Shown: positions 1 through 27,275 of the stretch, in pieces
Layout of the letters: each line of letters starts with the position of its first letter
Position numbering within the stretch: the first letter of the stretch is position 1
Assembly (NCBI GenBank): GCA_973895155.1
Contig: OZ316892.1
Location: 4,238,510-4,302,509, forward strand
Length of the DNA: 64,000 nt
DNA from: Marsupella aquatica
Lineage: Eukaryota; Plantae; Marchantiophyta
Reading direction: 5' to 3'
Notes under the pieces: generated by a model
What the model was told of the DNA's origin: nothing
The model's database searches: none
What the model saw: the letters and a program-made list of their open reading frames with translations, nothing else
Made by a program: the position numbers and the translations under genes

Positions 1-639
1 TCGTAAGAAAACCAAGACAAAAATGACTCCCGCGGAGACATCCATACTTGCATATCGAGGAAAGTCAATTAGAGAGAGAACAACGGAGACGAAGAGTATC
101 CATCTCTTTGAATTGACTGAGATATCCGATTTTGGAATAGTCATTTGCAATGGGGCTGTCCGTCTTGTGATGGCAAGAAATGATAAAGCTACAGTTTTGG
201 AGAGATAAAAAATTCTCGGGTGTTTCTTTGAGAAGAACATGAAAGTTAAAGAGTGTATAGAGGGATTGGTTCTGCTAGTCAGCGACGACCAACAGGAAGA
301 CAAAATAAGCATTTGTTTGGATCGAACGCAATATATAACCTTCAATCAGCCCAGAATCAATGATCTTCTAGGTGCAAGGCACGCCTTGGAAAAAGTTACT
401 AGTGTGGAATCTATCCTTCCGATCCAGAGGGATCAACGGGAGATTTAATTTGTCAATACATTATTGACGTACTTGAGTTCCAGAGAGTTCCTTTCAACCA
501 GGGATTTCGCTTGGGAAAGGCCCCGCCAGTGAGCAAGGTTGAAGTATACTTGGCGGAGAATCTTCTGAAAGTAATTACCTCAGTGAATGTCGGGGCTCTA
601 TTCGATTCTTTCCTCAAAGAATATAGTGCTGTGAATATA

Positions 640-1110
640 TTTAACAGCAAGTCATTTTTTGTTGAGATATCACGTTGTCATCTTGCACCGGACCACATCA
701 AGTGCCGAGAGTGGAATCAGGATTACACAGATAGGCTAAAGAATTCACTCCTCTCTCATTCGGCTATAAAGTTTGAGAAGCGATGCTGCTTTTTAGTCCC
801 TGTGAAGTGGGTTCAGTCGGAGGCCGACAGAGATCCCGACTACAATGGGGCGCCCTACGATTCATCGCCAAAGGAGGAGGACATTATGACCAGTCATTTT
901 TGGATACTCGGAGGCCAGCACACAATAATGGCGTACAAATTGCTAAGAGAGGACGACAAAGTCAGCCAAGTTGTACGAGACGCTTGCGGTACTGTAGAAG
1001 CTGTAATGTTTTGGGCAACGCTCAACAACGACAATAATGTTCATTTGATGGGATTATCGAAAGCTCTGAACCACTGTCATCAAACATCAATGGAAGAAGG
1101 ACAGTTTCTC
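640..1110 (+). other. ParB/Sulfiredoxin-like N-terminal domain within the polyprotein
   Basis: FFVEISRCHLAPDHIKCREWNQDYTDRLKNSLL...FWILGGQHTIMAYKLL follows the ParB/Srx pattern (P..Q.R.......L..S then hhh.GxH/R), similar to DGQHR-type members. Confidence 0.55.
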
Positions 1111-2109
1111 ACCATTGTACGACAGTGTCGTAATATCTGGAACTCATTTGGGCGGCCTGGATCACATTATTGTCATCCAAATTGGAAGGTATATAAATAT
1201 CCCTCTTCGATCACATTATCATTTAAACTTTTGTCACGCGAACGGTCGCGTCAAGCTTAGAATTGTCATGTTTCCATTGTTTTTCAGGTATTTATGAGAG
1301 CTACGAGTTTTGTTTGCCCATGGGCTCAAATGGGGAAGAACGAAATGATGAAATTTGGAGAATTGGCTCCGTTTCTCTTTACAATGGAGGACGAAACATT
1401 CAAGAAGTGGATGGAGGTCTACGAACTATCAAGGACAGGAGAGCTTGTAATTTACAACAGAATTTTATAGAGGGATGCCATCAAAATTGCGGATAATCCA
1501 TGTGCTTATCATCTTCTGAAGAAGACGTTCCGTTCTTGTCAAGGGTGCTCAGACTCGGTTCTTCGAAAGGCAGCGGAATATATGTTGAGCGGAAGACTGT
1601 CTATACTCAAAAACCGAAGCATCAAAGTGAAATCTAGGAAGGCGAGGAAGTCCTCTGAGGCTCCAGTGTTGTCAACGACCAGCATGAGTTTGGAGCAATT
1701 CTGTATAAAGAAGAAGACGAAAGTTGAGTTTGAGATTTTATTATTGAGTAAACTCAACGGGGAGACATCCACCCGGACGGAGCTGAAAAGTCTGACAGAT
1801 TCAGCGCAGAAATTGCGGGTCAAAGGAATGATTGATCGCTTTAAGCTCAACAAGATGGTGCTGAAGCAGTTGAGACATGCGATGAGTGGTTATCTGAAGA
1901 AGTGCTTAAATGTAAATATTAGTAATGATAATTTGTTGAAGGAGATCGACCCTATATTCTACAGGTTGGTGGAAGGAATACAGAAATCAGTTGATAGTCA
2001 AGGAAACCAACTAGTGCGGCCGGTCGGTGAGAGGCTGAAATTGCGATCCCTACAGGATATACAAAATGCTGGGTTTGCAGACTGTATCATACGTGAAGAC
2101 AAGAACCTT

Positions 2110-2725
2110 GCGAGCTTGATTTATTTTGATCCCTCATCAATGGGAGATTTGCGTCCGCCAAATTGCTCATTCTATGAGGGGTTATTTCGTGCTACTAGCG
2201 AGATAGGGGCAAAACCACACCATGTGGTTATTATTGTAGCCTCTCTCGTTGAGTCTTACTTAATCAAACGGGAATTAGGGAAGTACACACACTACGTTGC
2301 TGTCGATAGCCATTATATTCAGAAGCGGCCGAAGGAGAAGAAGCTTATTGTAACCTACGCTTTTCACAGCTTGGCCTTCAGCACAATGGGCGATCCACAA
2401 GCCCTCGAGTTCCAATTGGTCTCCAAATATCAGATTGAGAAGATAGCCAATTTTGAAGAGAGCGGCGAGTTCACGACACCTTCCCCAGAAAAGATACTTC
2501 CATTCTTTGAAAGTATTGTTAGTCAATTCGTCCAATGTGGGGAATGGGCTATATGCTTCGGTGAGGGAACAAACTTGATCCAGTGCTTAATGGTAAGTTT
2601 TGAGATTTATATTTTGGGGTTTCAATTTTAAGATTATTTAGATTATTATATTCTCAATTAATATTGTGAACTAATTTCGGCTTTTTTTACAAGATGCTGG
2701 ATCCAATGTAAAATATTACTGCCCT
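2110..2725 (+). other. Degenerate beta-class amino (N6A/N4C) DNA methyltransferase-like domain
   Basis: SLIYFDPS (motif IV-like, cf. LIxxDPPY) precedes PEKILPFFESIVSQFVQCGEWAICFGEGT-NLIQCLM/DAGSNVKYY (cf. xEKP..L...I...T..GD.VLDPF.GSGT...A...GR..IG), which is the beta-class motif order. Key residues are diverged. Confidence 0.4.
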
Positions 2726-3142
2726 GTGGCAACGCATAGGGAGTTGTCTTGTTTCTTGCAACACACCACGGCGACAATTGATACAACGCTGTCATTGATT
2801 GACCCAGTACGGGCTAGTATAGAAAAATGTATAGATAAATTAATGAAGTACCGTCCATCCGTAACTGCTCTCAGGGCTGATGTTTTGGATGTCCTCCACG
2901 AACAACATATCCCTGATAATATTTGTAATCAAATATTGCAAGAGTATGCACTCTCTGAAGATTCTGATCGATTGTACATTCGACCAACGGAGTACCCTAG
3001 TGGGCCAATCCAAGGTAAGTTACTTTTGAAACCTCTTACTTTTTATTGCGTCACGCAAACATGCGCGTGGACATTCATAATATTTCTTTTCACGCGAATA
3101 TGCGCGTGAGTCATTCTTATCAAATGATCTGATTTTATTCAG

Positions 3143-4040
3143 ATCAAGTCGACTGCGGCTTCAATGTTGAGGATGCAGGGAGCAATGGTGATGCGGATGG
3201 TGAGGGGGAAGGTGACGTGGAAAGTGACGCGGATGGGGATGTCAATGACCAAGATCCAGAGTGGATGACCGATACGCAGAATGACATCGGAGATTCCGAC
3301 AATAGAGGAGATGAAGAGAGTGACGGAGAGGAGATGAAGGACGCTGAGGACGAGGAGATGGAGGGTTCTGAGGACGCTGAGGACTCTGATGAAGAGGCCA
3401 CACAAGAGCCTCGACATGAGGTGGACCGAGAGGAGGCGACCCGGCAGGAGGAGGCCAGAGAGGAGGTGGCCTGGCAGGAGGAGGCCCGGCAGGAGGCGGC
3501 CCGACAGGAGGAGGACAGGCTGGAGGAGGCCCGGTAGGAGGCGGCCCGGCAAGAGGAGCTTCAAAAGAAGGAGGCGGCCCAGCAAGAGGAGGCGTCCCGA
3601 CAAGAGGCGGCCCGGCAAGAGGAGCTTCAAAAGAAGGAGGTTAAGAAGAAAAAGGCAGCAGCTAGAAAAGCAACTGCCGCGAAGCAGAAGGAGAAAGCCG
3701 AGGCTGAGAAAGCCCAGGCTGAGAAAGCCCAGGCTGAGAAAGCGGAGGCTGAGAAAGCCCAGGCCGAGAAAGCCCAGGCTGAGAAAGCCCAGGCGGAGAA
3801 AGCGGAGGCCGAGAACGCGGAGGCTGCGAGAGTCCTTTTAGTGACAGAGGGAAATAGGGCCAAGGCGGAGAGTGTGGCGGCTGAGAGGCTGCTGGCCGAG
3901 AGGATGGCGGACGAGACCGCAAGACCGGAGAGGGTGGAGGTGGAGAAGTTGGAGGCAGAAAAGGTCGATTCCGCAAGACTGGAGACAGAAGAAGCCGCAA
4001 GACTGGAGGCAGCGAGGAAGGAGGCCGAGAGGGCCAAGGA
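3143..4040 (+). repeat. Coding low-complexity block: D/E-rich segment, then QEEA(A)R and 15-bp AEKAQ/AEKAE tandem repeats (coiled coil)
   Basis: Repeated gaggcggcccggcaggag and gctgagaaagcccag units in frame with the polyprotein. Confidence 0.8.
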
Positions 4041-4949
4041 TCTTTCGCTTATTCCTAAGGCACAACGTCTACCAAAAATAAGGCTGAATTTGAAGAAGCC
4101 TTCTTCACCCTCAGTTGCAGTTAAGAAGAAAATATTAGACTATTTTCTTCGCCCGGAGTTTGAATTTAACGATCCACCCTTAAGTACGGTCTTGTTGGAT
4201 GATTGGAATAAATATTCACCGGAGCAGCTCTGAGTCCAGGCAGTCCTTGCTTTGCAATATTGGAAGGGTCTTTTGATTACCGAGGAGAAGACTGCCACTG
4301 CATCCAGAATGGAGACAATCATCAATAATGTCCGCTTTTCCGAGAATCGAGTGCAAGACCTGGGAATGTTTTTGGCACCAGACTCGGCTCAAGTCGTTAA
4401 GAGACTAACAGCTGACTTGACCCGACCGGGTTCGTGGTCTCGACCCCGATATATTGCAGAGGTCACTCGCGCAGAAATTGTGGCACCGGATATTTTGGAA
4501 TCGGATTCCCAGATTGTGGAATATTTGAATCAAATGCCACAACCATTTGAAGGTCTTCCCGCCTCATCGCTCCAACCTTCGCAAACTGGTCCGATGGAGC
4601 GATCACTGCGGTCTCGAGGAGGGCTGAAGGATGTTGTTGCGATTGAGGCACCCAAGAGATCAGCTGCAAAAAGGCCGGATCCACCCAATCCAAAGGTCAT
4701 TCGCAAGCTATAAGCTTAAAGTTTCTATTATAGACGTCATTATTTTATTATTGATTTGTTATTGTTTCTGTTTTCTGAGGTAGAACCCTTAGGCTACAAC
4801 CTCAGTACGTTATTTGAAGGCGTACTGAAATCTCTATTTTTTGCAGTTTTTTGAAAATTTGGCTAGTCGAATAGATCAATGCCTTGATCCTTCTAAGGAT
4901 ATGGAAGAGCTATTGACCAAGTTCTTACAACACTCGATCAAGAGGAAAC

Positions 4950-5530
4950 ATATGATGTGTCTGAGACCGCGCGAGTTGCTCACCGATGATATAATTAACG
5001 CTTATTTGAGTTTTCTCGAACTGATTCTCGATAGAGTTGGAAAGTCAGACCTTGTCAAATTCTTCCAAACACACCATTTTGAGCTTCTCTCCATGGATCC
5101 TACCATTTTCGACGAGGAGAGAGCAGCTTGGACAAAAGGAGTTTCCGCTAAAAATCAATGAATACGACAAACTGGTCTTTCCAGTACACAATGCTGTGAA
5201 AGAACATTGGTCATTGGTAGTCTTGTATCCGAAGGAGAAACGGCTGGAGTACCTAGATTCTCTAGTTCATAATCGACAAAATCCTGGGGTGCTAGATATT
5301 GTTGGGAAGTACTACGCCGACGAAATTGGCTGAAGAACTGGTGTCAACTTGGATCTCTCAGGTTGGGAACGGATATATCGGAATGATATTCCTCACCAGA
5401 GTGACAGCCACAGTTGTGGTGTGTTTATCTTGAGATACGCCAAGTGCTTGTGTCAAGGAAACGAAATTAATTTTTCCGCGGATCAAATTGAGAAATTCCG
5501 TAGGGAGATAGTCTTGTCGTTATTTGACAT
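4950..5530 (+). pseudogene. Ulp1/SENP family (peptidase C48) SUMO protease domain
   Basis: LRPRELLTDDIINAYL, FPVHN..EHWSLVV, YLDSL and PHQSDSHSCGVFILRYA give the His-Asp-Cys triad and the oxyanion Gln. There is one frameshift (~5150) and one TGA (5331). Confidence 0.9.
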
Positions 5531-5979
5531 GGACTTCCGCAAGCCGACGTCCGCAAGTAACCTAGTTACCGGGATCCGTGCTGCTATGATTGACATTTCC
5601 GGCGGAATTCCAGCACTGAACGACCGTCTTGTATAGGTAATACACTTCATTTCAGTGTCTCTCTTTGTAGTCACGCGACCGTTCGCGTTATAAACTTATT
5701 TTCATTTCTTAATGTTTTACAGAAGCCTATCCTGAAACCCCCTGATCGAGTATCGAAGGCACCAGTCCGGAAGTCCGGTGATCGTCTGGAGGCGGGAAAC
5801 AAACAGACCGTTCTAGTACGTTCTCCAAACCCTGCGGCACAAAAATCACAGGTACAGATGGCGCCTAATCCATCGGCAAAGAAGTCACCGGTTCATAAGA
5901 GACTTGTAATTTTCGATCTGAATCGGGTACTTATCTGGTCAGAGAAGATCAGCCCTGGGATGCCCATTCGGTCAAGGGG

Positions 5980-8900
5980 TGTAGCAAGGTGATAAAGAGA
6001 TAAATGACTATTTATTCCTTAACAACTCGATTTCGTTCCGGTTAGGAGTGGATAAGATCGAAAAGACCTAATTAACACAATTTGAGAAGTTTACACCAAT
6101 ATTCTTAGGTTGGAGAGATTTCTAATGATCTCCTTAACATAAGTGTTTAACCACAAACTCAAGTGGGTAATCCTTAAGATTCACAGTGCAATAATAAAGA
6201 CTAGAATTAACAAAGATTGAAACTAGAGAGAGTAGATAGGAGTTTTCAAAGTGCAAGGGAATTGAATTTCTGACCATCACCACTCCTTCAATAAGGATTA
6301 TGGTCTAATTTAAGATTCAGAAATCAACATTTTCTATGCTTTTTGATTTCTCGTAGCAACTCTTCTCCATCTCTTGAATTTAGAAGATATGAACGTAAAT
6401 CAACCCGGGACACTTTTCTGGTCCTGTTGAGGACGGTACTAGGATACTCGAATTGGCTTACTTCTCCTACAATCCTTAAGATTGCTTGGTTGAGTTTTGT
6501 GCAAATGTCAATTTCCTCTTTGGTGAATCTTCCAAATGTATTGGTCACAAATCTCATTGATCTTCCAATATCATTATAGGCACACTCTAGCATTCATTGA
6601 ACATTTCACAACAACTCAAGGGTTGCTAAACTTCTTCCTTTTACTCAACCATGGTAAAAGAAAGGAAGAAAGACATAGATTCCTTCAAAGGCAATGAGGA
6701 AATCAAAATGTATGTTTTTTCTCTCTCGGTTGACTTTGGGTTCTTCTCCTTTTGTACTAAAAGTGAAGATTATGAAAAGACATGCCTCTTCAAAATCCAA
6801 GTCTAAAGAAGTATGTAAATAAAAGTAAACTATCCTAGTCAAAAATAGATTAGAGACTACAATGGATACATCAACAAAATATTGGAGTCTACTTACTCAT
6901 ATGCTAGTCTACATAGCCATTTCTAAGTCTAAACTAATGTGGCTCTAACTCTCTAAATATGACTCTATTCTGGTCCTAGCTTTTGGGAAGGAACCTCCTC
7001 AGGGTTAGCCATGGCAAGGGGTTCTGGTCGAAGGAAAACTCCTTGCTGGCCAGTGGTAAAAGGGATGGACGGGTCAATATCCATGTTCTCCTGATGGGCA
7101 CTTGGGTCATGAGAATAGGTGTAAGAATGGGAGTGGAAGTGTGTACTGGGAGTGGGGAAACCAGGAGGGTTGAGGGGTGATGAGGGGCCAGTGGAATAAA
7201 CTCCTTCATGAGGACTAGGAGAGAAAGATCTGGTAGTAAAGGGAGGAATCTCAGTATCAGCTAATAGCTCCTCTGTAGTCAAGTCACTCATCTCCCTTAA
7301 GGCTTCACAGGTCTTTGAGAGGCCTGTAAGTGCTACATCCACCTTGGTACTCACATCTACCACTAAATGGTTAATCTTGGAGAAAAGGATGGGTGTGGTG
7401 TTCTTGGCCAAATACTCATCATAAATTTGGGCCTTAAGAAGATCCAGAGAAGCTATCTTAGTCAAAGGCTCAATCAGATCCAAAGATTGAGTGATATTGA
7501 GTTGGAGAGTATGCTCAAGCTCATTCTTCTTCTTACTCCTTTCCAATTGCTGTTTGAGTTCAGATACCTTCTTCTTGAGGAACTCATTCTCCTTCTCCAA
7601 CTTCTTCTTATCTGTGGCATCACTCATGGTGGAGATCTTCTCAAGAATCTGCCCTGGTTTCACTCCTAGCTTCTGAGAAATGTCGGTGATGACCTTCTCC
7701 ATCATAGTGGTCTTCCTCTTCACCTTCTGGAACGTGTCTGAGATGATCTGGAAATCAGCTAGGGTGTCTTGGGAGGCATGGCCGGGTGCATCCGGACATT
7801 CAGCCGGGTCGACGAAGGCCGGGTCGGAAAAGTCCGGGTCGAGGTTCCGGGCAGCAGACCGGGTCTTTCGAGGATTTGTCTCTGCTGGTTTCTCATCCTC
7901 ACTGTCATCAGAGGTGGCCTGGGTGATATCTGGATCTGTCTCTCCATACTTGATGAAGTTGTACTTGGCCAATAGTAATTTCTTCTCCTCTCTGAACAAA
8001 ACTCCTTCAAAGCTATATAGATGTACCAGGTAGCAGGATAGGGGAGTAGGACTCTTGTTGGATAGGTTCTGTACCAACTTCCTTATCAAATCAAAGATAA
8101 GCTTAGCCCAGTTGACTTTTCTTTCTCCCTTGTAAGCAGCAACAATGGTAGAGCCAACTCCAACAGTAACTCTTCTTGGCTTCTCAGGGTACAGTAGGGG
8201 TAGCAGAAAGCTGAAGACTCGTCTCAGATCAGGATCCAAACATTTAGAAACATTGAACCCGTCCTTACTGTTGATGGCTCCTTTGAAGTAAGGAAGGATT
8301 AGGTTGACAGCTCTCCCCACTGGACCTTCTCCTTCATCTTCCAATACAAAAGCTCCTGCAATCATCATCTGAGTCCATCGCTCAGGTCGGCCTCTGGAGG
8401 TATCCTTAAACTCAGCCGGATACTCCTTAGATCGGATCTCTCTGATCATATCTTCGCTCTGATAACTCCAAGATAGCTCCATCAGAGACTCACAGCCCAT
8501 CCTGAGCAAAGACTCCCTCAGTTTGACCTTCTCAGCTTCACTGTCCGAAATAGCTGGCCTCAGAATTTTCATGGCAATAGGGACCTCCTTTCTCTTCGAT
8601 CGTCTCACAGGGGCTTTAACCGGAGTAGGTGCAGGTGATGTTGAGGTTGAATGCCCCTTAGAGATGCGAGAAGTGGACATTCCGGTTGGATCCGTCCCTT
8701 GCTCCATAGGACTTATCGAAGCAGAAAATGGATTCCAAATAAATGGCTTGCCTCCTCGTCGGCGAGCTCTACAATGCTGCGACTTCAGAATGGTCAATCT
8801 CTTCGGTGTCGACCAATGGTAGAAATGTCCGGGTAGACCTGGCTACGGCGTTTCTGATCAACTGACAAGAGCTTCTGGAAACATTGATCAATATCCCGTC

Positions 8901-9576
8901 AATCAAAATTCAGGTGCATCGAACGTGGGGCAAAGATAGACTCAAACGGGCCTGCAATGTGGATGTCCGGATCGACCTGGCCTTCGTTCTCATCACCGAT
9001 GTATGCACGATCAAAATCTCAAACTTCCTACCTTCACTCCCAGCGGCGGAGTAGGCATTCCCCTCACAACGAATCAGTCAGTACCCTCATATCCAGGCTC
9101 TCATCAAGAAATTCAAGATTGGTCCTATAATCTGGACCCAAGATCCTCTACCAAAAGGGTAGAGCCTCCTCACTCTACTGCTTTAACAGCCTAATGCACT
9201 CGGGAACTCAAAACCTACTAAGTTCGGCTTTGAGAGGTGTGAGAGGCCGGATCGACTCTCCTTCCTTATATCCGGATTCTGCTGTGGTCGTGCCTGTGTT
9301 TGACTTATGGTTTTAAAAACTTTGGCAATGGACATCTGTTGTTGAGTAGAGTCTCGGTATAAGCTTTATATCTCATTCCAGGTTTATAACAAAAAGTTCT
9401 GGGTCGATCCTCCTTCTCTAATATCAATCCGGGTTGACCTCAGATGGGCTTGAAAGTCTCATAACACTTCATAGTAGTCTTCAGGTCCCTCTTTAGCCTC
9501 ATTTGAGATCTTAAACTTAAAAATTCAAAAATTTATGGCTAGTTAACCCTTCCTTCATAAACATCCTTATCTCACA
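5980..9576 (-). mobile_element. 3597-bp solo-LTR-like insertion (TG...CA) with AGGGG target-site duplication
   Basis: Begins TGTAGCAAGG and ends CCTTATCTCACA (imperfect short inverted ends). Flanked by AGGGG at 5975-5979 and 9577-9581. Precise removal restores the host reading frame. No gag/pol and no terminal direct repeats are seen. Confidence 0.8.
6965..8797 (-). CDS. Intact 610-codon retroelement-associated protein of unknown function (likely ATG at 8707) with a coiled-coil C-terminal half
   Basis: Uninterrupted ORF. Motifs RGRPERWT, FLLPLLYPEKPRRVT, VNWAKLI and PTPLSCYLVHLY resemble (from memory) a repeat-derived hypothetical protein family abundant in Marchantia. TATA-like ccggatataagg lies upstream at ~9263-9275 on the minus strand. 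Confidence 0.7.
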   Translation of the reverse strand: MTILKSQHCRARRRGGKPFIWNPFSASISPMEQGTDPTGMSTSRISKGHSTSTSPAPTPVKAPVRRSKRKEVPIAMKILRPAISDSEAEKVKLRESLLRMGCESLMELSWSYQSEDMIREIRSKEYPAEFKDTSRGRPERWTQMMIAGAFVLEDEGEGPVGRAVNLILPYFKGAINSKDGFNVSKCLDPDLRRVFSFLLPLLYPEKPRRVTVGVGSTIVAAYKGERKVNWAKLIFDLIRKLVQNLSNKSPTPLSCYLVHLYSFEGVLFREEKKLLLAKYNFIKYGETDPDITQATSDDSEDEKPAETNPRKTRSAARNLDPDFSDPAFVDPAECPDAPGHASQDTLADFQIISDTFQKVKRKTTMMEKVITDISQKLGVKPGQILEKISTMSDATDKKKLEKENEFLKKKVSELKQQLERSKKKNELEHTLQLNITQSLDLIEPLTKIASLDLLKAQIYDEYLAKNTTPILFSKINHLVVDVSTKVDVALTGLSKTCEALREMSDLTTEELLADTEIPPFTTRSFSPSPHEGVYSTGPSSPLNPPGFPTPSTHFHSHSYTYSHDPSAHQENMDIDPSIPFTTGQQGVFLRPEPLAMANPEEVPSQKLGPE

Positions 9577-10355
9577 AGGGGTGTGAGACAGATGCACAAG
9601 GTTATCTATCCAAGGCCTGATTTAATGGAATTTCTTGAGAAGGTGGCAGATCTATACGACATTGCGATCTGGTCGTGCATGTTCAAACGGAATATTCTAT
9701 CTTGTGTAAGGCTGATACTTCGACCCGAAGTTTTGAAACGTATTAAATTTATATGGGGACAAGAATCAACTCGACTTATTGGGAAGAATAATAATGACAT
9801 CCCCTTATTTGTCAAATATCTCTCGGACATTGCCGCCGATATTAAAGATTACAACATCGAGAATGTCATTCTTATCGATGACGCTGCATATAAGACGAGC
9901 CTTAATGACTTCTATTCATCGCTGTATCCCGATGCATATTCTGGGCTTGATGATGACCTATTTTTTAGAAAGAAACTATATCCATATCTATGCGACATGT
10001 CAATTGACAAGTTGACATTCCGCGAGCTCCTTAGTGGATATGGGATTCCAACGTTCTCTCAAGAAAATCTTGAGAAAGATTATATTGATAAGACGAATCT
10101 TTGGAGGAGAAATGTGATCATTCGTAATTAGGGGAATAAAGACCATTTAGAAAAGTTTGACGAATTTATGAAATACTTATCTGTCGAAAAAGACCGTGCT
10201 ATAGAAGCCCGAGATAAGTCCAATAAGTAAACATTTATTGTTTATTATCAATTATTATTTATAAATTGATTGAAATTGAACTTTTGGGAGTGATGCGCCC
10301 GGTCGCGTGGTTGTTTGCAATTACATAATATGAGAATCGAATTGTTCATTTACAA

Positions 10356-11063
10356 GTGTCTAAGTGGAGCAGGTCGCGTCAACTTCTAGTTTTAGGACTG
10401 GAAAACTTCCTGTGCTCTGTTTCAAAATATACTCCTCAGCTCAAGTCAACACCCGGAATTCGTATCAAATCTCTATGTGTCGTTTCGAGGCCGCATCTTC
10501 ATGATCTTATAAAATTCTGTTATGATCATTTTGATGTGATGGTCTGGTCTATTCTCAACGATAAACTGGTTTATCAGATACTTTCAGAAGTGTTATCGAG
10601 CACCGACCTGTCGTAGCTGATATATGTGTTCACGCGGGATCATTGCTGGAATCTTGGTTATGTGAAGAAAAATTATAAGACTGTTGTCTTCAAATCTATC
10701 GAGAGACTACGTGATATGTTTCAAGATTATCAACCAAAGAATATAATCCAGATTGATGCCTGTCCTTCCCATACATGCCTGACAGCTGTATGCGGATTAT
10801 TGTTCGCTAAGTCGTTTCAAGGATCATTGGATGATGTCTTTTTGAGGGATGACCTCATTCCATAGTTACGAAAGCTATCAAATTCAGGGCTTTGTCTTGT
10901 GTTCGCTAACAAGTTCGATTATCCCATCTGGTCGATTAGAAATCTACATCAAGATTGGGATCTGAACGAGGATATATGGGAGCATCTGTACGTGCAGAGA
11001 CATGCGGATCAAGTTCTTATCAAGCACTTCAACAGACGTCACTTATCAATGGCCAGAGTGTAG
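10356..11063 (+). pseudogene. FCP1/NIF-like paralog copy 2 (catalytic DxDxT lost)
   Basis: LLVLGLENFLC..RPHLHDLIKFCYDHFDVMVWS..FKSIERL..NIIQIDA, with in-frame stops at 10614 and 10863. The C-terminus DYPIWS..QRHAD..FNRR matches copy 3. Confidence 0.75.
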
Positions 11064-11176
11064 AGGATGTTTTCTCTGTAATATGTGACGCGACCATTCG
11101 TGTGACTACATCCATACGGGCTCATGCATCTTCTTGTGTTTCTTTATAGGAGATTCATTGCAGCAGAGAAAATGGG

Positions 11177-12025
11177 CTCATAGTTTTAGACGTGGAGCAT
11201 CTACTCTGTTACACTGCACCGCATTCCCAACTGATGGCGGTCTCAACTGGAATTTGGATTGGGAATATATACGTTTTTCCAAGGCCTCATCTTCACGAAT
11301 TCTTGAGATTCTATTTTGAGAATTTTGATGTAGGGATCTGGTCCTCTCTTGGGAAGAACCTTTTAGATCAGATTTTAGCATCTATTTTTACTGCGATGGA
11401 AATGGCCTCATTTAAGTATATTTGGGATCAGTCTCATTGTTACTTATGCGATTGGGTGACATCAAATAAGCGGATATTTTTGAAGTGTTTTGAGAAGGTT
11501 GGAATTTATACAAAGGCATATCTGCAGCAAAATATAATGCTTATCAAATCCGATGCATTTCATGCTTGTTTAGATCCTGTTGTTGGATCATTATTTCCGC
11601 CCAAATATTTTGGGTCGGTCGACGACAGTTTCCTGATTAACTTGTTGATTCCGTATCTTAGCAAGCTAGCAAACTCTTGTGAGCCGCTTGTCATTGCCAA
11701 TGGAAGAGATTATCCAGATTGGTCAGTTAAATCTATTTTTAGAGATTATGATTATAATCATACTCTATGGGAAGACCCTGTGATTCAGAGGCATGGAGAT
11801 AGATATCTAGTAGAGCAATTTAACAGACGCCCAATTTTGGACGCTTCCAAAATAAATAGTCGGCATGAGATCAGATTAATTTGTATTGTCGTTCTAGAAA
11901 CTATTTGTAAACTCCTTATATACTGGTTATCATATATAAAGGATCTCAAAGATTTATTTCTCTATTATTATTATTCGCGTGAGCATGTCTCTTGGTCCCG
12001 TCAAGTTGGATTGGTTAAAATGTGA
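11177..12025 (+). pseudogene. FCP1/NIF-like paralog copy 3 (catalytic motifs degenerate)
   Basis: LIVLDVEHLLC..FPRPHLHEFLRFYFENFDVGIWSS..WDQSHC..FLKCFEKV..DDSFL..LIPYL. Similarity to copy 2 ends near 11835. Confidence 0.75.
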
Positions 12026-12995
12026 CGTTGCAGTCATTTTCAGGGTTTCACGCGCAGCCACGCGTCATGTCGCCCCCTTTTTATTAAAATAATAATATTT
12101 AGTGATTTTCGGAATTTCCAAAGTTCGGTTTTCCTTAAATTGGGGTTCATGATGCTTTGGGCCACATATGTAAATGAAAAGAACCTGGTTGGCCAGAATA
12201 CACAAGTCCTACTTGCTATGAATTTCCTTCTTGCAGCCTTGTCTTTTAGGTTCAATTTATGTTTCCTGGAGATGGGGTCTCCTACTCCAACTTGCATGCA
12301 AAATCAGGGTTCTTGCTTGTAGAATTCAAAGTGTCACAAAGCTACATCTTCTAAGTACATTTACAGGTACAAGAATGTGTGGTTCACAAGAGGTGGGTGA
12401 TATTGTTAGTGAGCGTAAGACTCTACCGGAGGAGGCATTTCAGAACATTTGGTGCGCTTCATGTTACATTATGCAATAATGAGTTGCTGTTGCTGTGCTT
12501 GCATCAAATTGGGCCAAATACATGTGGTGGAGTTCATTTGGCATTGTGCAAAAAAGTATCATGCTGGCTAACATCAGAATTTGAGCAAAAGTATATTGAC
12601 AATATTTGAGCAAATGAAGCACCAAATATCAAACTCAATTTCTGAACAGTATTTACCTAAGTATTATTCACACAAGGCCACTGACAAGTAGTGGTGAATT
12701 TGGTAAACTTATATCCCACTACATCCCATTTATTGTTACACAATTAGACTTAGTTAGTCTAGTTCTGGTGACGAGGCCTATTGTGACCAAAATAATTGTA
12801 ATTACATATGTTTTCTCATCATGAATCATTTTTTACTGCATGATTTAGTATCATCTTCATGACAGTCAAAATGAGTTCTCATACAGGAATGACCCAGCCA
12901 TTTGCCTGAGTACTAGTGAATTTTGGTTTCCCCCCGGGTTTCCCAGTCTCATTCGATGGTCATTGCAAGGTTCTCTTGGATTTTCGGTATCGATA

Positions 12996-13161
12996 TATGA
13001 TCATTTGACTTCTCAGTTTTGCATATGTGGATTCATAGGCACTTAACCTTAAATTTGTAACCACCACAAATAAAATTGTTTTCAAAGATTCATAGAGAAT
13101 ATTTTTGAGGTTGAGTGTCTATGAATGCACATATCCGAAACTGAAAAGTCAAGTGGTCATA
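12996..13161. mobile_element. MITE-like inverted-repeat element
   Basis: ~58-bp imperfect terminal inverted repeats: tatgatcatttgacttctcagtttt... versus ...aaactgaaaagtcaagtggtcata. Confidence 0.7.
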
Positions 13162-16532: not shown

Positions 16533-19500
16533 ATGGCGTCTCAAGAGATTGAACGGTGGCCAAGTTTCAACTTCCCGCAACTTGCTTCGGCGGAGCGGAC
16601 ACACCCAAATGAGCATCAGGAGCAGCCCGATGTCTTAGCTACGGAGCTTGGCAACCTGGAGACGCTTCTCGCAATAGACGACAATCTGGCGCGGTCGCAT
16701 GCGACTCCTGAAATTCACTATGACGAAAAAGGTCAGGGACGAGCAGGACACAATTCTACGACGCGTCTCACTACAGACGACAATTCTATCACGCCGCAGA
16801 AAAGAACTCCTGACAATTCTCACTATGAGGAAAGAGGCCAGGGGCGAGGAGGTCACAATTATTCGACGTCCCTCACTTTAGACGACACTTTAGAAGACAC
16901 TTTAGACGACACTTTCATGCCGCCGAACGGGAGTCCTGAAAATCACTATGAGGAAATAGGACACAATTCTAAGGCACCTCGGGACCCGTTGCTGCATCAC
17001 ATCCGTGGCACCGGCGTAGAGTTCCAGGACCTATGCTACACAGTGGTAAAAAAGCAGAAGCAGGATGGGGTGTGGATCAAGCGCGAGGCGCATCTTCTCC
17101 AGGGAATCACGGGGGCTGCTTCCAAGGGGGAAGTAACAGCAGTCCTGGGACCGAGTGGAGCAGGCAAGTCCACTTTGATGGATGCTTTGGCCGGGCGCAT
17201 CGCCAGTGGAAGCTTGGGAGGAACGACCACGGTAGATGGACGGCTTGTCACCCCGACTCTCATGAAGAGACTGTCTTCCTACGTCATGCAAGACGATCAA
17301 CTCTTTCCACTGCTCACCGTTTGGGAGACCCTGTGGTTCGCGGCAGAAGTGCGCCTGCATCGGGGCATATCACGTGACGAGAAGCGAGACCGAGTCACAA
17401 ATCTCCTAGATCAACTCGGGCTCACAGTGCGTACTCGATCGTTAACTGCTAATTTAGCAATTCTGCCTTTCCATTCGCATAGAAATTTGTATGTTTGGCG
17501 TGTTTAAATGATCGATGACAACTCTAGTTAACCAACAAATCAACAGCAAAAGAATTTTTAAAACGCATTCCGTGAGTACTCACCGACTCTAGCGCGAATC
17601 AGATGCGCTTTAGTACGCATACACCGGTGGTTACCTGAGCCACAAACAACAAACTCAATTATCCCATTCCTACTGGAGTTTAAGCCAGTTCTATTTAGCC
17701 TGATTCGAACCAACAGAACTCAAATAAAATCATATTCGAATAGAATTTTGCTCCCACTTAAGAATATGCCGATCGGCCTGGGGATTGGATATTTGAGTAA
17801 AATTGTTTACCAGCCTGAAGGGGTTAGTGAGGACATTGATTCATGCTGTCAAACTCGGAAGTTAAAATTCAGAGATTGCCCTCGGGACAAGCCTACTGCT
17901 AGATGAGTCCAGAAATTTTGGAGAGAAATTTTGGAAACGCAACGTTGTTTATCTATGCATGCATAGGCAGATCGCCAGAAAGATAACTTCGCTGAGCAAA
18001 GATGAAATTGTTCTGGGGTTAACAGAACTGGTGCCTATGTACCACGACTTGCTTCCTCGATCAATTGGTGGACTTTGACTGCAACAAGTTAGTTTCATAA
18101 TAACGTAAGAGAGTGAATTCTATGACGTACATCTCTGACCAAAAATCGTTCTCTCTCGATCAGACAGCACAAAATACGTATATTGGAGACGAGAAAACAA
18201 GGGGAATCTCCGGCGGGGAAAAGAGAAGAGTATCGATTGGAGTGGATATCATCCACGGCCCTGCGTTGCTGTTCATGGACGAGCCTACAAGCGGTCTTGA
18301 CAGTGGAAACGCGTTCAACGTCATCGAGAAAGTGCACCGCATTGCCAAGGCGGGAAGCACAGTGATTCTCACAATTCATCAGCCTTCTTTTCGTATTCTG
18401 CGGTTCGTCAATCGTCTCATCGTCTTGGCAAGGTACCGTGTAATTCCTACAGCTCATTCAGCTGTATTGTCGGAACGATTGGCCCTGCTTTCCTAATTTT
18501 ATCAAATCACATTTGCGTATTATTTTTCCGTAGTTGATCATAAATGTGGAGCTTTAAAATCTGAATATCAGAGAGCGTGAATACTCAATCTAAAGTAAAG
18601 ATGATGTGTCTTATGAATTGAACAACTAAGTGCTATCTTAGATTACTCGGGTAGCAATGGTGGGTTCAATGACTTTTAATGGTCAACAAAACATAATAGG
18701 AGCAAATTCAACGAGAAACGCAGAAGCATTTGTTTCCGTCCGCAGGCTTGGAGGTGGTTGCCGAAGATGTCTGATGGAAGCCCTTGCACAAACCAAGCCT
18801 GCTTACAGGACTCCAAAGGCCCCTAGGATTTAGAAGCTCGACAGAGCCTGCAGTTCGAGATAATCCAAAGTGATTGGCTTCAAGCCAGTGAGAAACTTGT
18901 GGCTCTCAGACAACAAAGAAACTTCAACGGGCTGTGGTACTGATCATGCGGATGGCGTGGATTCTGCAGAGGGCAATTGATATACCAGGGAGGTCCAAAC
19001 TACCTCTCTACACACTTAGCTGGATTCGGGCGCGTAGTGCCTCGTGCAGAGAACCCGATGGAGTACCTTCTTGATGTAATCCAGGAGTACGACAGTTCCG
19101 CTCATGGGATAGAGCCTCTTGTGCTGTACTATAACGACGGCACCCAGTTGAACCCCAACGATCCCGAGTTTTCAACAAGTCCTGTAAGAGGCAAGAGAAC
19201 CGCAGTTAGCGAATTCATGCAGAGGGAACAGCCCCCCATGCCAGAAAGAAACATGACATCGGAGACGATATTGTCAAAGATCGCGCATCCATTCCTGCAC
19301 TTAGGTAAACCAAAGACACCCGACTACACTTTCGAGGCGATGGAGGGCGGCTACGGGCTTTATGACGATACAGATGACGGATATGATCATTCGCTTGATA
19401 GAAGCCCGAAACTGGCCTCCCATTTCTACAAAGGCCTCATAGAAGGTCTGGCGGACAGATTCTTGACCCCAACCTGGACGTCCCCCAGAACGGGCACGAC

Positions 19501-21377
19501 GCCATCGCCAAGGCGACGAAGCTTATCAGCGCTGCATTTTAGAACGACGGGCTTGCCGCCATCGCCAAGACGAAAGAGCTTATCAACGCTGCAACTTAGA
19601 ACGACGGGCAGGCCGCCATCCCCAAGGCGAAAGAGCTTATCAACGCTGGCACAACTTAGAACGATGGGCATGCCGCCATCGCCAAGGCGAAATAGCTTAT
19701 CAGCACTGCAACTTAGAACAACACCGCACAGGACACCATCAACAACTCCCCACCGTTCTCCTTCAACGACTCAGGTCAGAGTTGAATCATTCGTAATAAA
19801 AAATAAATTGAAGTGTACGATATACTCTGAATCGATTGAAAGAGAGTTCATTTGAGTTGACACTCCAACTCGACAATTGGCAACTAGTTCGCATGATATT
19901 CAGATGCCAATTTTTCACTTGAATGATATTGCCAACCAGGAAACAAAAACTCCTCAAAGTTTTACCAGATCGAAGGCCAGGCTAGGGAGCGGCTGTCACT
20001 TTCATAGCTCAAAATACTTGACGAATTCGAATAGCTGAAGTCCCTGTCATAACTCAGAGATTCACTGTGACATTGTATTTCAGTGAAGTTCTAGATTAGC
20101 GAATAAACTAACCTGATCCTCAGTGTTACTGCAGTTTCCTCAAACTCCAGAACTGTCCGACCGCGTGATGACCTTGGAAACGGACAACCCAATTATCTCT
20201 AAGCGAGTGTCGACCGAAGCCACGGTCAGCGAGAAAGACTACGACCTGCCTAAACAAATCCATGAGGAGAAGTTTGCCAATATCTGGTGGCGAGAGGTTC
20301 TCATCCTTATGTTTCGTAACGTGAAAAACTTCCAGCGTGCGCCGGAGCATTTCCTGTCCCGGCAGATAACGGTCACTTTAATGGGCTTTCTGCTTGCTAC
20401 TTTGTTCATAAGAGTAAGACACCATTTGTCAGACCTGGACGGTGTCAATTCCATCATGTCCTTCTTCATCTTCACCGTCACCGTATTCTTCTTCTCCTCC
20501 AACGACGCCGTACCTGCATTCATTATGGTAAACAACGCTCGCGAGCTCAAACGACATATAATCTCCGGGAATGTCCCTCTAACTGTGCAGTGGATCGATA
20601 GAATTCTTTTCTGTGGCTTGAGTCATGAATACTCACCGATATTGTCGAGAACAGGGGTTTCAGTGTCTTCTATGAGCCTTTATTGACAACCAATTTCAAA
20701 TTGAGAAGGAGTTTTGGTGAATTCTGCGTTATGTGCTGATTTTGGGACTGGTTTCTTGTCGATCGCAGGAGCGACTCATTTTCATCCGAGAGACGTCGCA
20801 CAACGCGTACAGAGCGTCGTCGTATGTGATAGCCAACGCCATCGTGTCCATCCCGTTTATAGGAATTCAAGCCATGACGTTCACAGTCATCACATGGTGG
20901 GCGCTGGGATTTAAGGACTCAGGGATGGAGGCATTCTTCTTCTTCTTCCTCATCCTCTTCGTCTCGCTCTTTTGCGCAAGCTCATTTGTCATGTTTGTTT
21001 CGTCTGTTGTACCGAACTACGTTCTCGGCTACATGGTTGTCGTCTCTTTCACGTCGCTCTACTTTCTCATGTGTGGATTCTTTATCCAGCGCAAGCAGAT
21101 CCCCACGTACTGGATCTGGGTGCACTACATCTCCACACTCAAGTATCCCTACGAAGCCATGATGCTCAACGAGTATGGCAATCCAAATCATCAGCTCTGC
21201 TACTTCCGTTCTACAAATGGCGAATGTTCTTTAACTGGCAAAATTCTTCTCGAGAAGCTCAATATCACTCAGCTGACCAAGTGGGAGAGCTTATGTATCC
21301 TATTTGTCATGGCCGTCTTCTATCGCTTTCTATTTTATTGCGTCCTCCGGTTCGGCACCAAAAACCAAAGATCATGA
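16533..21377 (+). CDS. STR: Half-size ABCG transporter, STUNTED ARBUSCULE (STR) type; exons 16533-17426, 18164-18432, 18970-19774, 20135-20527, 20769-21377 (989 aa)
   Basis: [19 protein letters not shown], Walker [22 protein letters not shown], signature [64 protein letters not shown]|[19 protein letters not shown] and an ABC2 membrane domain are all characteristic of STR. All introns are GT-AG and in phase. Confidence 0.9.
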
Positions 21378-23745: not shown

Positions 23746-26700
23746 TTTTTTTTTATAAGGTTTTTTTTTAAATAACCATTTATTCCACATGAACCCCACT
23801 GATGGGGGCACCCCGCAAGCCCAGAGGCAAAAGAACCCCATAAAGGGAAGAAAGACATAGGGGAATCCGTAAGAGCCAAGGAGAGCCCACAGTCATGGAT
23901 GAAAATACCATCAGAGAGTCACCAGACCCAAGAAAGTCAGCATGACAAGCATCCATAGGATCAACACTAAGCCAGACGACGGCGCAGAGCGAATCGCCAT
24001 GAAAAGGACCCGCAGAGACCCTGCGAGAGGAAGGCTCAGACTAAACTTAATACCAACAGATCGAAGCAGAGAAAGACTAGATGCGGGCCTCCAAATCTAA
24101 GTCCGCCCAGCACTACAAATTGACTCAATATAATAATCCTACTCCTCAAAATTCTATTACTTTCAATTGTCAAGAGTTCCTTGGCACCAGAGAGTCGAAG
24201 TAGTCTTTGAGAGTGGCCCGCAGCAGCTGCAACTGCAGTGAGATGGTCGAGCGTCTCGGAGATGACAAGATTTGTTCTCTTAGTTTTATTCACTATAAAC
24301 CCAAATGCCCATGTGTTGCACAATTAGCAAGGGCAACGCCCAGAGGGTCAAGCAAGGCGAGGTGAGGCGAGGCGAGGCCTAGAGAGCAAGGGCGAGACCA
24401 GGCTGGTGAGGCAGAGGGCAGGCAGGGCAGAGAGGGTGCATAGGGAGGCAGAGAGGACAAGGGAGAAGGTGGCTGAAAAATGTCTTTCATCTAATTCCCA
24501 TGAATTTCTTCTTTTTGCCTCAAAAAACTCAATGAAATCCATTCAAAAAGTCAGAATACAAAGAGGGGGGCCCAAAAGGGCCACCACCCGAGGGGGGGGG
24601 GACCGAACGTCGAAGTGCCGCAGCTGGTGGAGCCGGAACCAGGTAAGAAGCTGAGCCTCCGAAGAGGCAGCCAAACAAGAGATTTGGAAACTACAAACAG
24701 GAGCAGCACACTCCAAAGACCGGCCAGTGAACAGGGACCGGCGAGGTCCTGAATAGTGGGTCCGCGCTAGAAAACTAACAGTCTACCAGTAGTGCAGCCT
24801 CAAAACCCGTAAAACTAAAAAGCTCATGGTGGGTGTGGCGCCCGGTGTGGCGGGACTGGATGAACTTGAAGGATGTCCTCATGAACTGTGTGCCAAAGGC
24901 CAATCCAAGTACCATAAACATGTCGTGGTGTGCTTCGGCAAAGGTGATCTGCCCAATCCGAATGTTGGCCCGGCCGGTGTTTGGCCCAGTTGCGCTTGAG
25001 GTAAATGCTGAGGCGTTGCCAAGCCTTTTGAATGACACTGTGAGGATTGGGTCTAGTGTGTTCAAAGAAATGTTTACACCGATCCTTCCAAATGTGACAG
25101 CAGAGAATAGCCTTGAGTAGATGCCAAAGTTTCGCTGGGATGTCCCACGTTTCCGGAAGTGCAGCCCCGACAAAGATGTGAACAGGACTGGAGTAAGACT
25201 TGGCCTCCCTAAGAGAAAACGCACTGTTGAAGTGTGTCTTGTGCCCATATCCAGACCAATTGTGACACTGGGCACTCAAAGATACAGTGGACAATATCTT
25301 CGTGTTGGTTCAACTCGCATCTGGTGCACCAGGTAGCCGGATCAGTGGGCCGTAAACAAGGGAATCGCCAATGTTGTGATGTCGGGATACGATAAATTAG
25401 CTGCCACAAGTAGCAGGTCTCTCGAGCAGCATGGAAGGGGAGCCAGGTGCGAGTCCAGAGGGTTTCAAGGTCAGGAATCCAATTCAACCGTAATGCCCAC
25501 TTATGTATGGCCTTGTGTAAAGTTCCGGGGGGTCGGCCTTGGATTGCCCTTAAATGTGTGGTGGACGTATTCAGGAACGGAAGCCCATCCTTCCATTCAT
25601 ACTGGAGCAGAGGTGCTAGATGGCCGGTGGGCCGCCCGATGCGAAGTTGATGTGCAGCCTGAGCGCCCTACTTTCTGATCAAAACCCTGTGCAGAAGTGC
25701 CTCAGGAGGTGGAGCGAAAGTGTCCAGTTTGTGGAGACAATTGTTGATCACCTGGAACATCCGCTTTGCGGCTGTGGTATCCTGGGAAAATTGCCATTGC
25801 GTTGTAATATGTTGCCTCAAAGTTATGAATTCCCAAATGCACAGGTTACCATCCGAAAGCCATGCTTCCATGAAGATGGGGAGCCGTTTGGTAGGGTCGT
25901 TGTGGAGCTCCGGGACTCTCTTAAGATTGGCAAGCATCTTGCGATAGGCCCAAGCACAATTTCGGGGTAAGATCACCCTAGGCCCGTCCTCTCACCTCCG
26001 GAAGGCGCCCCGTGTATCTAGGATGTCTTGCATCAATTTGAAACCCGCCCTCTTAATTCTTCTCTGCGGGTTGCTGTGGCACTTCGCCCCGATGGAGTTA
26101 ATGTGGTTGAGATGAGGTCTCCAGAGGGGGAGGTGCCCCCATGCTTCCAAGTGATCCGGTGGTGTGGGCCGCAAATGCTACTTGGCGACGTTCCAGGCAG
26201 TGCAGACATTGACCCAAACTCGTGAGCCGGCTTGTGGAAGGGTGTGGCAGTGTGTAAACGCCCACGTGAAGTCATCAGGCCCCCATTTTTTCATAGAAAG
26301 TTGCTTAATTTGGGATTGAAGAATGCGTCTCAAGGGATGATCAGGGCCAAATTCATCATCGCGGGCCACCCTAATTGATCCAAACTCCCATCAGCCAAAG
26401 CCCAGATGATGAAGCTCCCAGCTAGAGCTCTGAATTGTGCCACCAGGGAGATCAGGCCTAGCCCCCCTGGCTCCTGGGTTTGGTGATAGTGGCAAAATCA
26501 ACCCAGGCCCTAGTCTTTGTGTTTTGCCCTGCCCACACGAATGCTGTAATTTTCTTCTGCAAGCTGTCTAACGTGCTCAGCTGCCCTGCCCAGACAGTAA
26601 GGGAGAACCATAGAGTGCTTAAAACCAGGTGATTTGCAATTGTAACCCAGGCTATCAGCGAACCTGAGGTCTTACGAACCTGATCCAGTTTCGATTCCAG

Positions 26701-27275
26701 CTTTTCAGAGAGATTATGAACCATTTGATGTTCTGAAATCTGCTGTGCTAGAGGTATGTCGAGGAGCTTAGTGGCGCAAAGTTCATCTTCCCACTTCCAT
26801 GGCAGCCGACGAAATTCAATAGGGATACATCGTGGCGAAATGTAGGCAGCCTTGGTTTTCTCCCAAGCACAAAACGAGGCACAAAACAGGCCTGATGCCA
26901 TGCCAAAGCGGTCAAGCACCAACTTGCTTAGAACTGTCCATGAATTGCATCGCTGCCCGAATGAGTAAGGCTAAATCATCCGCAAACAAATTGTGAACAT
27001 TATGGACAGCCAAGTGTTGAATGTCAACCCCTTGAATGGAGCCCCTGCAGACTTCTCTGCTCAAAATGCAGCTGAGGGAGTCGATCGCGATGAGAAATAG
27101 CAGAGGGGACAAGGGACAGCCCTGTCTCACTGACCGAGCGAGCTTAAAGGGTGATGCCATCCTCCCGTTGATCAATCCTGCCGAGGATGCAGAGGCGTGA
27201 GATGCCTTCAGGAAACGCATGAGAAGCCCAGCAAACCCCGTCTTCTCTAGGATTGCAAGCAAGAAACATGAATTT
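23746..27275 (-). mobile_element. 5'-truncated, frameshifted L1/Tx1-type LINE (RT, zf-RVT, 3' region, poly(A)-like tail)
   Basis: RSVRQGCPLSPLLF, LFADD, ITKPRSQGG and CTRCELNQHEDIVHCIFECP on the minus strand. The T-run at 23746-23770 may be the tail; the link between 23770 and 24780 is inferred. Confidence 0.8.

What the first reader, a model, noticed from the sequence alone, without database searches (positions are those of the whole stretch)
1234..12067. 20-bp palindrome T(C/G)ACGCG-N6-CGCGT(C/G)A repeated through introns and spacers of the element: candidate parS-like or anti-silencing target sites
Seen copies: 1234-1253 TCACGCGAACGGTCGCGTCA (intron 1); 3051-3070 TCACGCAAACATGCGCGTGG and 3090-3109 TCACGCGAATATGCGCGTGA (intron 3); 5671-5690 TCACGCGACCGTTCGCGTTA (intron 5); 10291-10310 TGATGCGCCCGGTCGCGTGG; 11086-11105 TGACGCGACCATTCGTGTGA; 12048-12067 TCACGCGCAGCCACGCGTCA. 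All are non-coding with a fixed 6-nt spacer. I did not notice the motif in the nested LTR-like insert or the rest of the window. Deviations in the CGCG cores are CG>TG/CA. Known: ParB dimers load at palindromic parS sites, and VANDAL VANC proteins target short motifs in their own TE's non-coding DNA. Inference: a self-recognition system in which the element's protein binds its own dispersed dyads.
Basis: partly seen in the sequence, partly recalled or inferred. Interest (0 to 1): 0.85.

Follow-up and report, generated by a model that had tools for sequence, protein, structure and literature searches.

The report
Plant transposon with self-tagging intron palindromes
A broken copy of a multi-copy plant jumping gene carries the same 20-base palindrome in most of its predicted introns, and the large protein it is predicted to encode, which begins with a bacterial ParB-type fold, likely docks on these tags to keep its own family active, a design already proposed for seaweed transposons.

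Summary
In detail: 7 of 7 copies are at the stated places, against 0.10 expected by chance. The spacer is always 6, and no copy lies elsewhere in the 64 kb. Six copies sit in five of seven predicted introns of one spliced gene; the seventh follows the stop codon. That gene is predicted to encode a >2,400-aa protein: ParB/Srx fold, a possible methyltransferase-like stretch, Ulp1 SUMO protease and three NIF-phosphatase-like domains. Sequencing runs show a multi-copy family ending near 12149. Fixed sequence, both orientations, unrelated flanks and 5 of 7 unpaired 2/19 positions point to a DNA site for a dimeric protein, not an RNA stem. Family exons keep CpG (o/e 0.85, against 0.36-0.71 in neighbouring repeats). 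Against the reading: extant copies lose the motif's CpGs faster than the rest of intron 3. The ParB CTPase arginine and a DPPY motif are missing, and no HTH, transposase or binding was shown. ParB-bearing transposons with inverted repeats are published for red and brown algae, and this scan holds 16 unchecked similar notes from this genome. Verdict: real, a new variant of a known kind.

The parts
1..12149 (+). Right-hand part of a multi-copy DNA-transposon-like element; left end and any transposase lie before the window; right end at about 12148-12149
   Evidence: summed contig depth is tens of times that of the flank in X1, X2 and X4 (not a copy number). Single-copy contigs begin at 12120 in X1 and X4, which puts the shared end near 12149 if contigs overlap by 30 letters (inference).
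1234..1253 (.). Dyad 1, in predicted intron 1 (1189-1287)
   Evidence: A 35-bp back-joint 1263->1229 appears in X1, X2 and X4.
3051..3070 (.). Dyad 2, in predicted intron 3 (3015-3142); position 3057 decayed in this copy only
3090..3109 (.). Dyad 3, in intron 3, 39 bp after dyad 2; likely a local duplication
   Evidence: A 10-bp deletion at 3093 is in about 8-9% of depth in X3 and X4.
5671..5690 (.). Dyad 4, in predicted intron 5 (5637-5722)
10291..10310 (.). Dyad 5, in predicted intron 6 (10227-10372)
11086..11105 (.). Dyad 6, in predicted intron 7 (11058-11149); reverse orientation of dyad 1 (18 of 20 identical)
12048..12067 (.). Dyad 7, 23 nt after the predicted stop codon and about 80 nt from the element's end
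2..1188 (+). Exon 1: uncharacterised N-terminal domain (broken by a stop and a frameshift), then a ParB/Srx-fold domain (about 640-1100) with GGQHT in place of GxxR
   Evidence: Model pLDDT 79.6; Foldseek best hit ParB 7bm8, E 1.2e-4; VIA Z 7.8, rmsd 2.9, 97 aligned to PadC.
1288..3014 (+). Exons 2-3: conserved helical stretch after ParB (possible DNA-reading part, untested), then a possible methyltransferase-like stretch (about 2041-2780) with DPSS, not DPPY
   Evidence: relatives. MTase tests were inconclusive: 421 of 1000 shuffles reach the real score; hhalign P 0.068, in register with the C-terminal SAM-binding motif region.
3143..4695 (+). Exon 4: acidic stretch and 15-bp (5-residue) tandem repeats
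4847..5636 (+). Exon 5: Ulp1 (C48) SUMO-protease domain, frameshifted in this copy
   Evidence: Pfam PF02902, E 6.9e-5 and 2.5e-7
5723..12025 (+). Exons 6-8: three NIF/FCP1-type phosphatase-like domains, none with the canonical DxDxT in this copy; the first is split by the insert
   Evidence: Pfam PF03031, E 8.4e-9, 4.2e-5 and 2.6e-13. Exon phases are consistent, with 4 internal stops in 922 codons.
5980..9576 (.). Nested solo-LTR-like insert; no motif; not part of the family unit
   Evidence: The empty-site joint 5972->9575 appears in X1, X2 and X5.

Best explanation
The 20-bp palindromes are family-specific tags in the non-coding DNA of a multi-copy plant transposon, and they are likely bound by a dimer of the element's own predicted ParB-fold accessory protein, which would keep active copies from being silenced. 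Shown: the sites, their confinement to non-coding DNA, the multi-copy family, the ParB fold, and the Ulp1 and NIF domains. Inferred: once docked every 0.8-2.6 kb, the Ulp1 domain would strip SUMO from local silencing factors, and the NIF-like domains, likely catalytically dead, would act on or shield RNA polymerase II CTD phosphorylation. The ParB domain likely serves as a dimer or nucleotide switch, not a canonical CTP clamp, and the methyltransferase-like part likely writes no mark. Mid-intron placement lets GC-rich tags sit along the gene without altering the protein or the splice signals. This copy is dead; inserted copies become methylated and lose the tags, so selection would act only on the transposing lineage.
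For: 7 matches against 0.10 expected. 7 of 7 in 10.8% non-coding DNA. Invariant arm letters, both orientations, and flanks no more alike than composition predicts (mean 9.2 against 8.9 of 30, 42 comparisons). Positions 2/19 unpaired in 5 of 7 sites. ParB fold in the same gene. Family majority keeps the CpG-rich arms in intron 3. Element exons CpG o/e 0.85 [0.79-0.91], against 0.42 in the insert and 0.36-0.71 in other repeats and intergenic DNA, and 0.99 in the host ABCG exons. A 35-bp unit around dyad 1 is duplicated in about 3-8% of depth in 3 runs of 2 studies (letters between not known), echoing VANC target turnover (PMC5735166, passages). Precedent: ParB-like PAG3 beside inverted-repeat arrays, with the same PDB entry 7BNR as its best hit (10.1101/2025.02.11.637652, passages; our rank 2).
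Against: No binding, methylation or expression data. Arms vary more than the rest of intron 3 among extant copies (6 of 28 against 6 of 88, Fisher P 0.038; 5 of 6 are CpG transitions). CpG retention is only slightly higher within 200 bp of a site (0.94 against 0.82-0.83). High CpG could also reflect recent arrival. GxxRxxA is not met. No HTH family matched exon 2, P0017 or P0022. The transposase, an equally good binder, is outside the window. 3 of 7 sites contain CACGCGC, the site of MULE-derived FHY3/FAR1. Only one intron could be compared across copies.
Confidence: 0.5

Rival explanations
1. The dyads are sites for the element's transposase, or for a TnpA-like transposase derivative encoded in the missing left part, used for end synapsis or self-activation.
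For: One site is about 80 nt from the right end. 3 of 7 sites hold the FHY3/FAR1 site CACGCGC of MULE-derived proteins. Transposases and TnpA act as sequence-specific activators (10.64898/2026.08.24.746577, part 1 of 9 read).
Against: 6 of 7 sites lie deep inside, in introns of the ParB gene, whereas TnpA sites cluster at termini in that paper. 4 of 7 sites lack CACGCGC. No subterminal array at the visible end.
Confidence: 0.2
2. The dyads are targets of an active element-encoded N6A/N4C methyltransferase that marks the element, as proposed for algal ParB-MTase cargo.
For: Motif order by eye and a weak in-register hhalign hit (P 0.068). Published proposal for Sola1-1_Ec32 (PMC12477816, passages).
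Against: The motif reads DPSS. The majority X1 contig over 2132-2528 differs from the window at 1 of 397 letters, while DPPY needs 3 changes there. Own HMM of 15 MTases: 421 of 1000 shuffles score as high. No Pfam, PHROG or phage hit.
Confidence: 0.1
3. The dyads recruit host factors (CAMTA-type CGCG-box binders, recalled; FAR1-type) and act as intronic enhancers.
For: Every half-site holds CGCG or its decayed form, and 3 of 7 sites hold CACGCGC.
Against: Non-coding half-sites in the element occur only as dyads at spacer 6, a geometry these factors are not known (recalled) to need. The dyad is absent from 52 kb of host DNA with at least two genes.
Confidence: 0.1
4. The palindromes are RNA hairpins that tune splicing of short introns.
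For: Six lie mid-intron, three of them 32-34 nt before the acceptor. They can fold (-4.4 to -10.3 kcal/mol).
Against: No compensatory changes, and the core letters are invariant. Positions 2/19 are unpaired in 5 of 7 sites. One site lies beyond the stop codon. Introns 2 and 4 have none.
Confidence: 0.05
5. Neutral relics: remnants of a tiny mobile unit or Helitron-type hairpins.
For: Units around the motif are gained and lost in some copies.
Against: No shared flanks. No consistent CTRR end after the hairpins: 3 of 14 flanks have one, at scattered offsets of 4, 15 and 19 nt. Confined to one element.
Confidence: 0.05

Closest known systems
Giant Plavaka (EnSpm) elements of the red alga Bostrychia with PAG3 (10.1101/2025.02.11.637652; passages read; supplements not seen)
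   Same: Transposon cargo protein with an N-terminal ParB-like domain (HHpred best hit 7BNR; our Foldseek rank 2 is 7bnr), inverted repeats of the same element, and proposed self-binding.
   Different: There: tandem arrays beside the gene, a 2OG-oxygenase effector, and a separate MTase+SET gene. Here: single dyads in the middle of the gene's own introns, Ulp1 and three NIF-like domains in one predicted protein, and a land-plant-like host.
Sola1-1_Ec32 accessory gene of Ectocarpus (PMC12477816; passages and supplement rows)
   Same: Large DNA transposon with a ParB-like plus methyltransferase accessory protein, proposed to bind and modify its own element.
   Different: A recognisable N4C/N6A methyltransferase there; here the methyltransferase is not demonstrable and lacks DPPY. 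The passages seen describe no palindrome set. The superfamily of our element is not determined.
VANDAL/VANC anti-silencing of Arabidopsis (PMC5735166; passages)
   Same: Family-specific short motif in introns and other non-coding DNA, gained and lost through tandem units, read by an element-encoded protein.
   Different: VANC motifs are 9-bp, non-palindromic, in same-orientation dense arrays. Here they are 20-bp dyads about 1 per kb. No VANC homology was seen, and the candidate binder is ParB-fold.
Bacterial ParB-parS (PMC13495010; passages)
   Same: ParB/Srx fold and palindromic sites.
   Different: The GxxRxxA arginine is absent, no HTH was detected, no ParA is in view, and the host is a eukaryote with an intron-containing gene.

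Membership tests
ParB-parS CTP clamp | N-terminal ParB/Srx fold | tested here: met
   Foldseek E 1.2e-4 to 7bm8, and ranks 1-10 are all ParB, PadC or Noc; VIA Z 7.8, rmsd 2.9, 97 aligned
ParB-parS CTP clamp | GxxRxxA CTPase signature | tested here: not met
   GxxT/SxxA in the window protein and in 19 of 19 relatives where the motif was read, of 34 proteins held (feature)
ParB-parS CTP clamp | Central helix-turn-helix that reads the site | tested here: inconclusive
   No HTH family hit for exon 2, P0017 or P0022; a conserved helical stretch is present; it was not folded
ParB-parS CTP clamp | Palindromic site bound by the protein; CTP-dependent loading | not testable with these tools
   Palindrome present; binding needs the bench
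Algal ParB-MTase transposon cargo (Sola1-1_Ec32, Plavaka PAG) | ParB-like accessory gene on a multi-copy mobile element | tested here: met
Algal ParB-MTase transposon cargo (Sola1-1_Ec32, Plavaka PAG) | N4C/N6A methyltransferase domain with catalytic motif | tested here: inconclusive
   Homology not significant; DPPY absent in this copy and in the majority X1 contig
Algal ParB-MTase transposon cargo (Sola1-1_Ec32, Plavaka PAG) | Inverted repeats of the element near the ParB gene | tested here: met
   7 dyads, 6 inside the gene's predicted introns
Sola, Mutator or EnSpm DNA transposon | DDE/DDD transposase, terminal inverted repeats, target-site duplication | not testable with these tools
   Left part is outside the window and no genome was held; only the right end was located
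VANDAL/VANC | VANC-family protein | tested here: inconclusive
   Pfam scans of the element's frames showed no such family; the left part of the element is unseen
VANDAL/VANC | Family-specific motif in non-coding DNA that turns over by tandem units | tested here: met
   within the window only
VANDAL/VANC | Protein-dependent loss of DNA methylation | not testable with these tools
   Only indirect: CpG o/e 0.85 in family exons
Helitron 3' hairpin | Hairpin about 10-12 nt before a CTRR end (recalled) | tested here: not met

The most novel reading that the evidence does not exclude
Early-diverging land plants host transposons that have turned a bacterial ParB-methyltransferase module into a non-methylating, site-specific chromatin eraser. 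It is one protein that docks on private palindromes planted in its own introns and brings a SUMO protease and three polymerase-II-CTD-phosphatase-like domains to them. This would be an anti-silencing system independent of VANC, with a protein-site code that changes from family to family.
Probability: 0.3. Interest if true: 0.75.

Novelty: new variant of a known kind. Interest (0 to 1): 0.48.

Why it matters
Sequence-specific self-protection by transposons is proven only in a few Arabidopsis systems (VANC; TnpA and Mu transposases in a 2026 preprint) and is merely proposed for algal ParB-type cargo. A discrete 20-bp dyad inside the introns of the candidate protein's own gene gives a direct protein-site pair to test. 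Ulp1 and NIF domains on the same predicted chain suggest how silencing would be undone without a new DNA mark. A family-specific binder of long sites could also be a targeting tool. The value of this one locus is tempered: it is a dead, truncated copy, and the same design has been noted many times by this scan in this genome.

Tried and rejected
No whole genome was held, so there was no genome-wide motif scan. The metagenome scan for relatives gave 1 locus, a chance match in bacterial DNA (L001). The viral scan gave 0 of 16 candidates. Protein searches with the methyltransferase-like stretch and with alignment A1 for longer proteins found nothing, which is weak evidence. P0016 among the hits is a spurious bacterial repeat protein and was left out of all alignments. 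The single-sequence fold of the methyltransferase-like stretch had pLDDT 38.9 and was not searched. NCBIfam, PHROG, PDB-sequence and phage tblastn searches gave no informative hit. The Atlas gave no answer, and no dimer prediction was obtained, so dimerisation is untested. No RNA holder was listed, which is no evidence on expression. Run X5 (small share, 82% running on unlike) and X6 were not used as evidence for habitat or spread. RNA-hairpin, Helitron-end and mini-element readings were rejected. The sigma-70 scan is irrelevant to a plant. Literature searches for a land-plant report of this design returned only the algal papers. Iyer et al. 2011 was seen only as a reference, and the Bostrychia supplements (repeat sequences, Table 6) were not seen and may bear on novelty.
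Full report
1. Observation. All seven 20-mers are at the stated coordinates. The pattern with up to 2 mismatches gives 7 matches in 64 kb against 0.10 in shuffles, maximum 1 of 100. Only a spacer of 6 gives such a cluster. A profile separates the sites (22-32 bits) from the next place (13 bits); leave-one-out recovers 6 of 7 above all non-sites. None lies in the nested insert or beyond 12067. The three core deviations are CpG transitions.

2. The carrier. Contigs of public runs laid on 1-13000 have a summed depth tens of times that of the flank in X1, X2 and X4, and single-copy contigs start at 12120 in two runs (depth is not a copy number; 40 of 1246 difference rows and 15 of 63 joints were shown). 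The element is therefore a multi-copy family whose right end is near 12149 (inferred from contig overlap). Its left end and any transposase are outside the window, and no genome was held, so the superfamily is open. The insert 5980-9576 has TGT..ACA ends, a 5-bp duplication and no internal repeat, and copies without it exist: a later solo-LTR-like insertion. An ABCG gene and an AP2 gene elsewhere in the window and GT-AG introns mark the host as a plant; earlier notes call it a liverwort, which I did not test.

3. The gene. Seven introns give one reading frame with consistent phases: 3 stops in 1287 codons over exons 1-4, 4 internal stops in 922 codons downstream, frameshifts near 445 and in exon 5, and a decayed acceptor in intron 2. 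This copy is dead. Two relatives (P0017, P0022) read straight across the intron-1 position, and many others run off at it. Domains: ParB/Srx fold (model pLDDT 79.6; Foldseek E 1.2e-4; VIA Z 7.8), Ulp1 protease and three NIF-like domains without DxDxT. The ParB signature GxxRxxA (PMC13495010, passages) reads GxxT/SxxA in the window and in 19 of 19 readable relatives. A stretch at 2041-2780 resembles a permuted amino-methyltransferase by eye, but tests were inconclusive. Its motif is DPSS, and the majority X1 contig, 1 difference in 397 letters, cannot be DPPY. Relatives are few and almost all unnamed (25 hits, one spurious).

4. Where the motif sits. Six sites lie in five of the seven introns, 28-74 nt from the donor and 32-72 nt from the acceptor; the seventh is 23 nt behind the stop. 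Non-coding DNA is 10.8% of the element, so 7 of 7 has P about 2e-7. With the insert removed the gaps are 1817, 39, 2581, 1018, 795 and 962 bp. Flanks are unrelated (9.2 against 8.9 of 30 expected), both orientations occur, the arm letters are nearly invariant, and positions 2/19 fail to pair in 5 of 7 sites. That is how a protein-read DNA dyad behaves, not an RNA stem or a mini-element. The half-sites are 11 bp apart, which suits a rigid dimer (inference).

5. Other copies. For intron 3 all 13 difference rows were shown (four runs, two studies). The family majority has intact arms, and 3057 is private decay. Among extant copies, 6 of 28 arm sites vary, 0 of 12 spacer sites, and 6 of 88 other intron sites (Fisher P 0.038); 5 of the 6 arm changes are CpG transitions, and a 10-bp deletion removes the second site in about 8-9% of depth in two runs. 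Inserted copies are therefore methylated and lose their tags. This counts against protection of all copies, but is expected if only the transposing lineage is under selection. A 35-bp unit around dyad 1 is duplicated in about 3-8% of depth in three runs, and one diverged X2 contig skips the unit around dyad 7 (letters between not known). Family exons keep CpG (o/e 0.85) far better than the insert (0.42), two RT fragments (0.57, 0.71) and intergenic DNA (0.36-0.51), and close to a host gene (0.99); there is little gradient towards the sites. Escape from methylation and recent arrival both fit.

6. Mechanism. Most likely (0.5): the element's accessory protein binds the dyads as a dimer and brings Ulp1 and NIF-like domains to its own gene, countering silencing without writing a methyl mark. 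Binding, the reading domain and the effect are all inferred. Rivals: transposase or TnpA-like binder (0.2; 3 of 7 sites hold the FHY3/FAR1 site), active self-methylation (0.1), host factors (0.1), RNA hairpin (0.05) and neutral relic (0.05).

7. Known systems. The idea is in print for algae: ParB-like PAG3 beside inverted-repeat arrays in red-algal Plavaka elements (10.1101/2025.02.11.637652, passages) and a ParB plus methyltransferase gene on Sola1-1_Ec32 (PMC12477816, passages and supplement rows). It works like VANC (PMC5735166, passages) but shows no VANC homology. It is not a member of ParB-parS proper, because the CTPase arginine is missing. Ulp1 cargo is recurrent in plant TIR elements (PMC12973397, passage). 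Methyltransferase capture by retrotransposons is a separate case (10.64898/2026.05.21.726589, abstract only). Six searches found no land-plant report of this design. PMC4738411, PMC6000157 and PMC4455052 were seen as passages. Unchecked notes of this scan describe 16 ParB/Ulp1-matching cases in the same genome, some with disarmed methylase and phosphatase cargo on Sola-like elements. They lower the novelty of this locus and suggest Sola as the carrier, but they are not evidence.

8. Verdict. A real, family-specific dyad system in a dead, truncated copy; a new variant of a proposed but untested kind. Interest 0.48.

Noticed in passing
window 5980-9576: 3.6-kb solo-LTR-like insert with a 5-bp duplication and a 625-codon open frame on the minus strand (6965-8842) with no Pfam match; multi-copy in the runs.
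   Followed up: partly
window 16534-21377: Host ABCG half-transporter gene (Pfam ABC_tran, ABC2_membrane) with a 57-bp repeat in one exon. From memory it resembles the mycorrhiza genes STR/STR2; not tested.
   Followed up: partly
window 24600-27270 (-) and 48923-51403 (+): Two reverse-transcriptase fragments; the 3' part of the second recurs at 35975-36363 (96-99% identity).
   Followed up: partly
window 62464-63441: AP2-domain gene (E 8.8e-15).
   Followed up: no
window 2-445: Domain before ParB, conserved in P0001-P0003, P0010 and P0026, with no family match; a second candidate DNA- or chromatin-binding part.
   Followed up: no
window 52488-53003: Four imperfect repeats of about 121-132 bp, unexplained.
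   Followed up: no
window 3034 and 5568-5937 (54 contigs): A subfamily about 80-87% identical exists in run X2, with a different intron 3; whether it keeps the dyads could not be read.
   Followed up: partly
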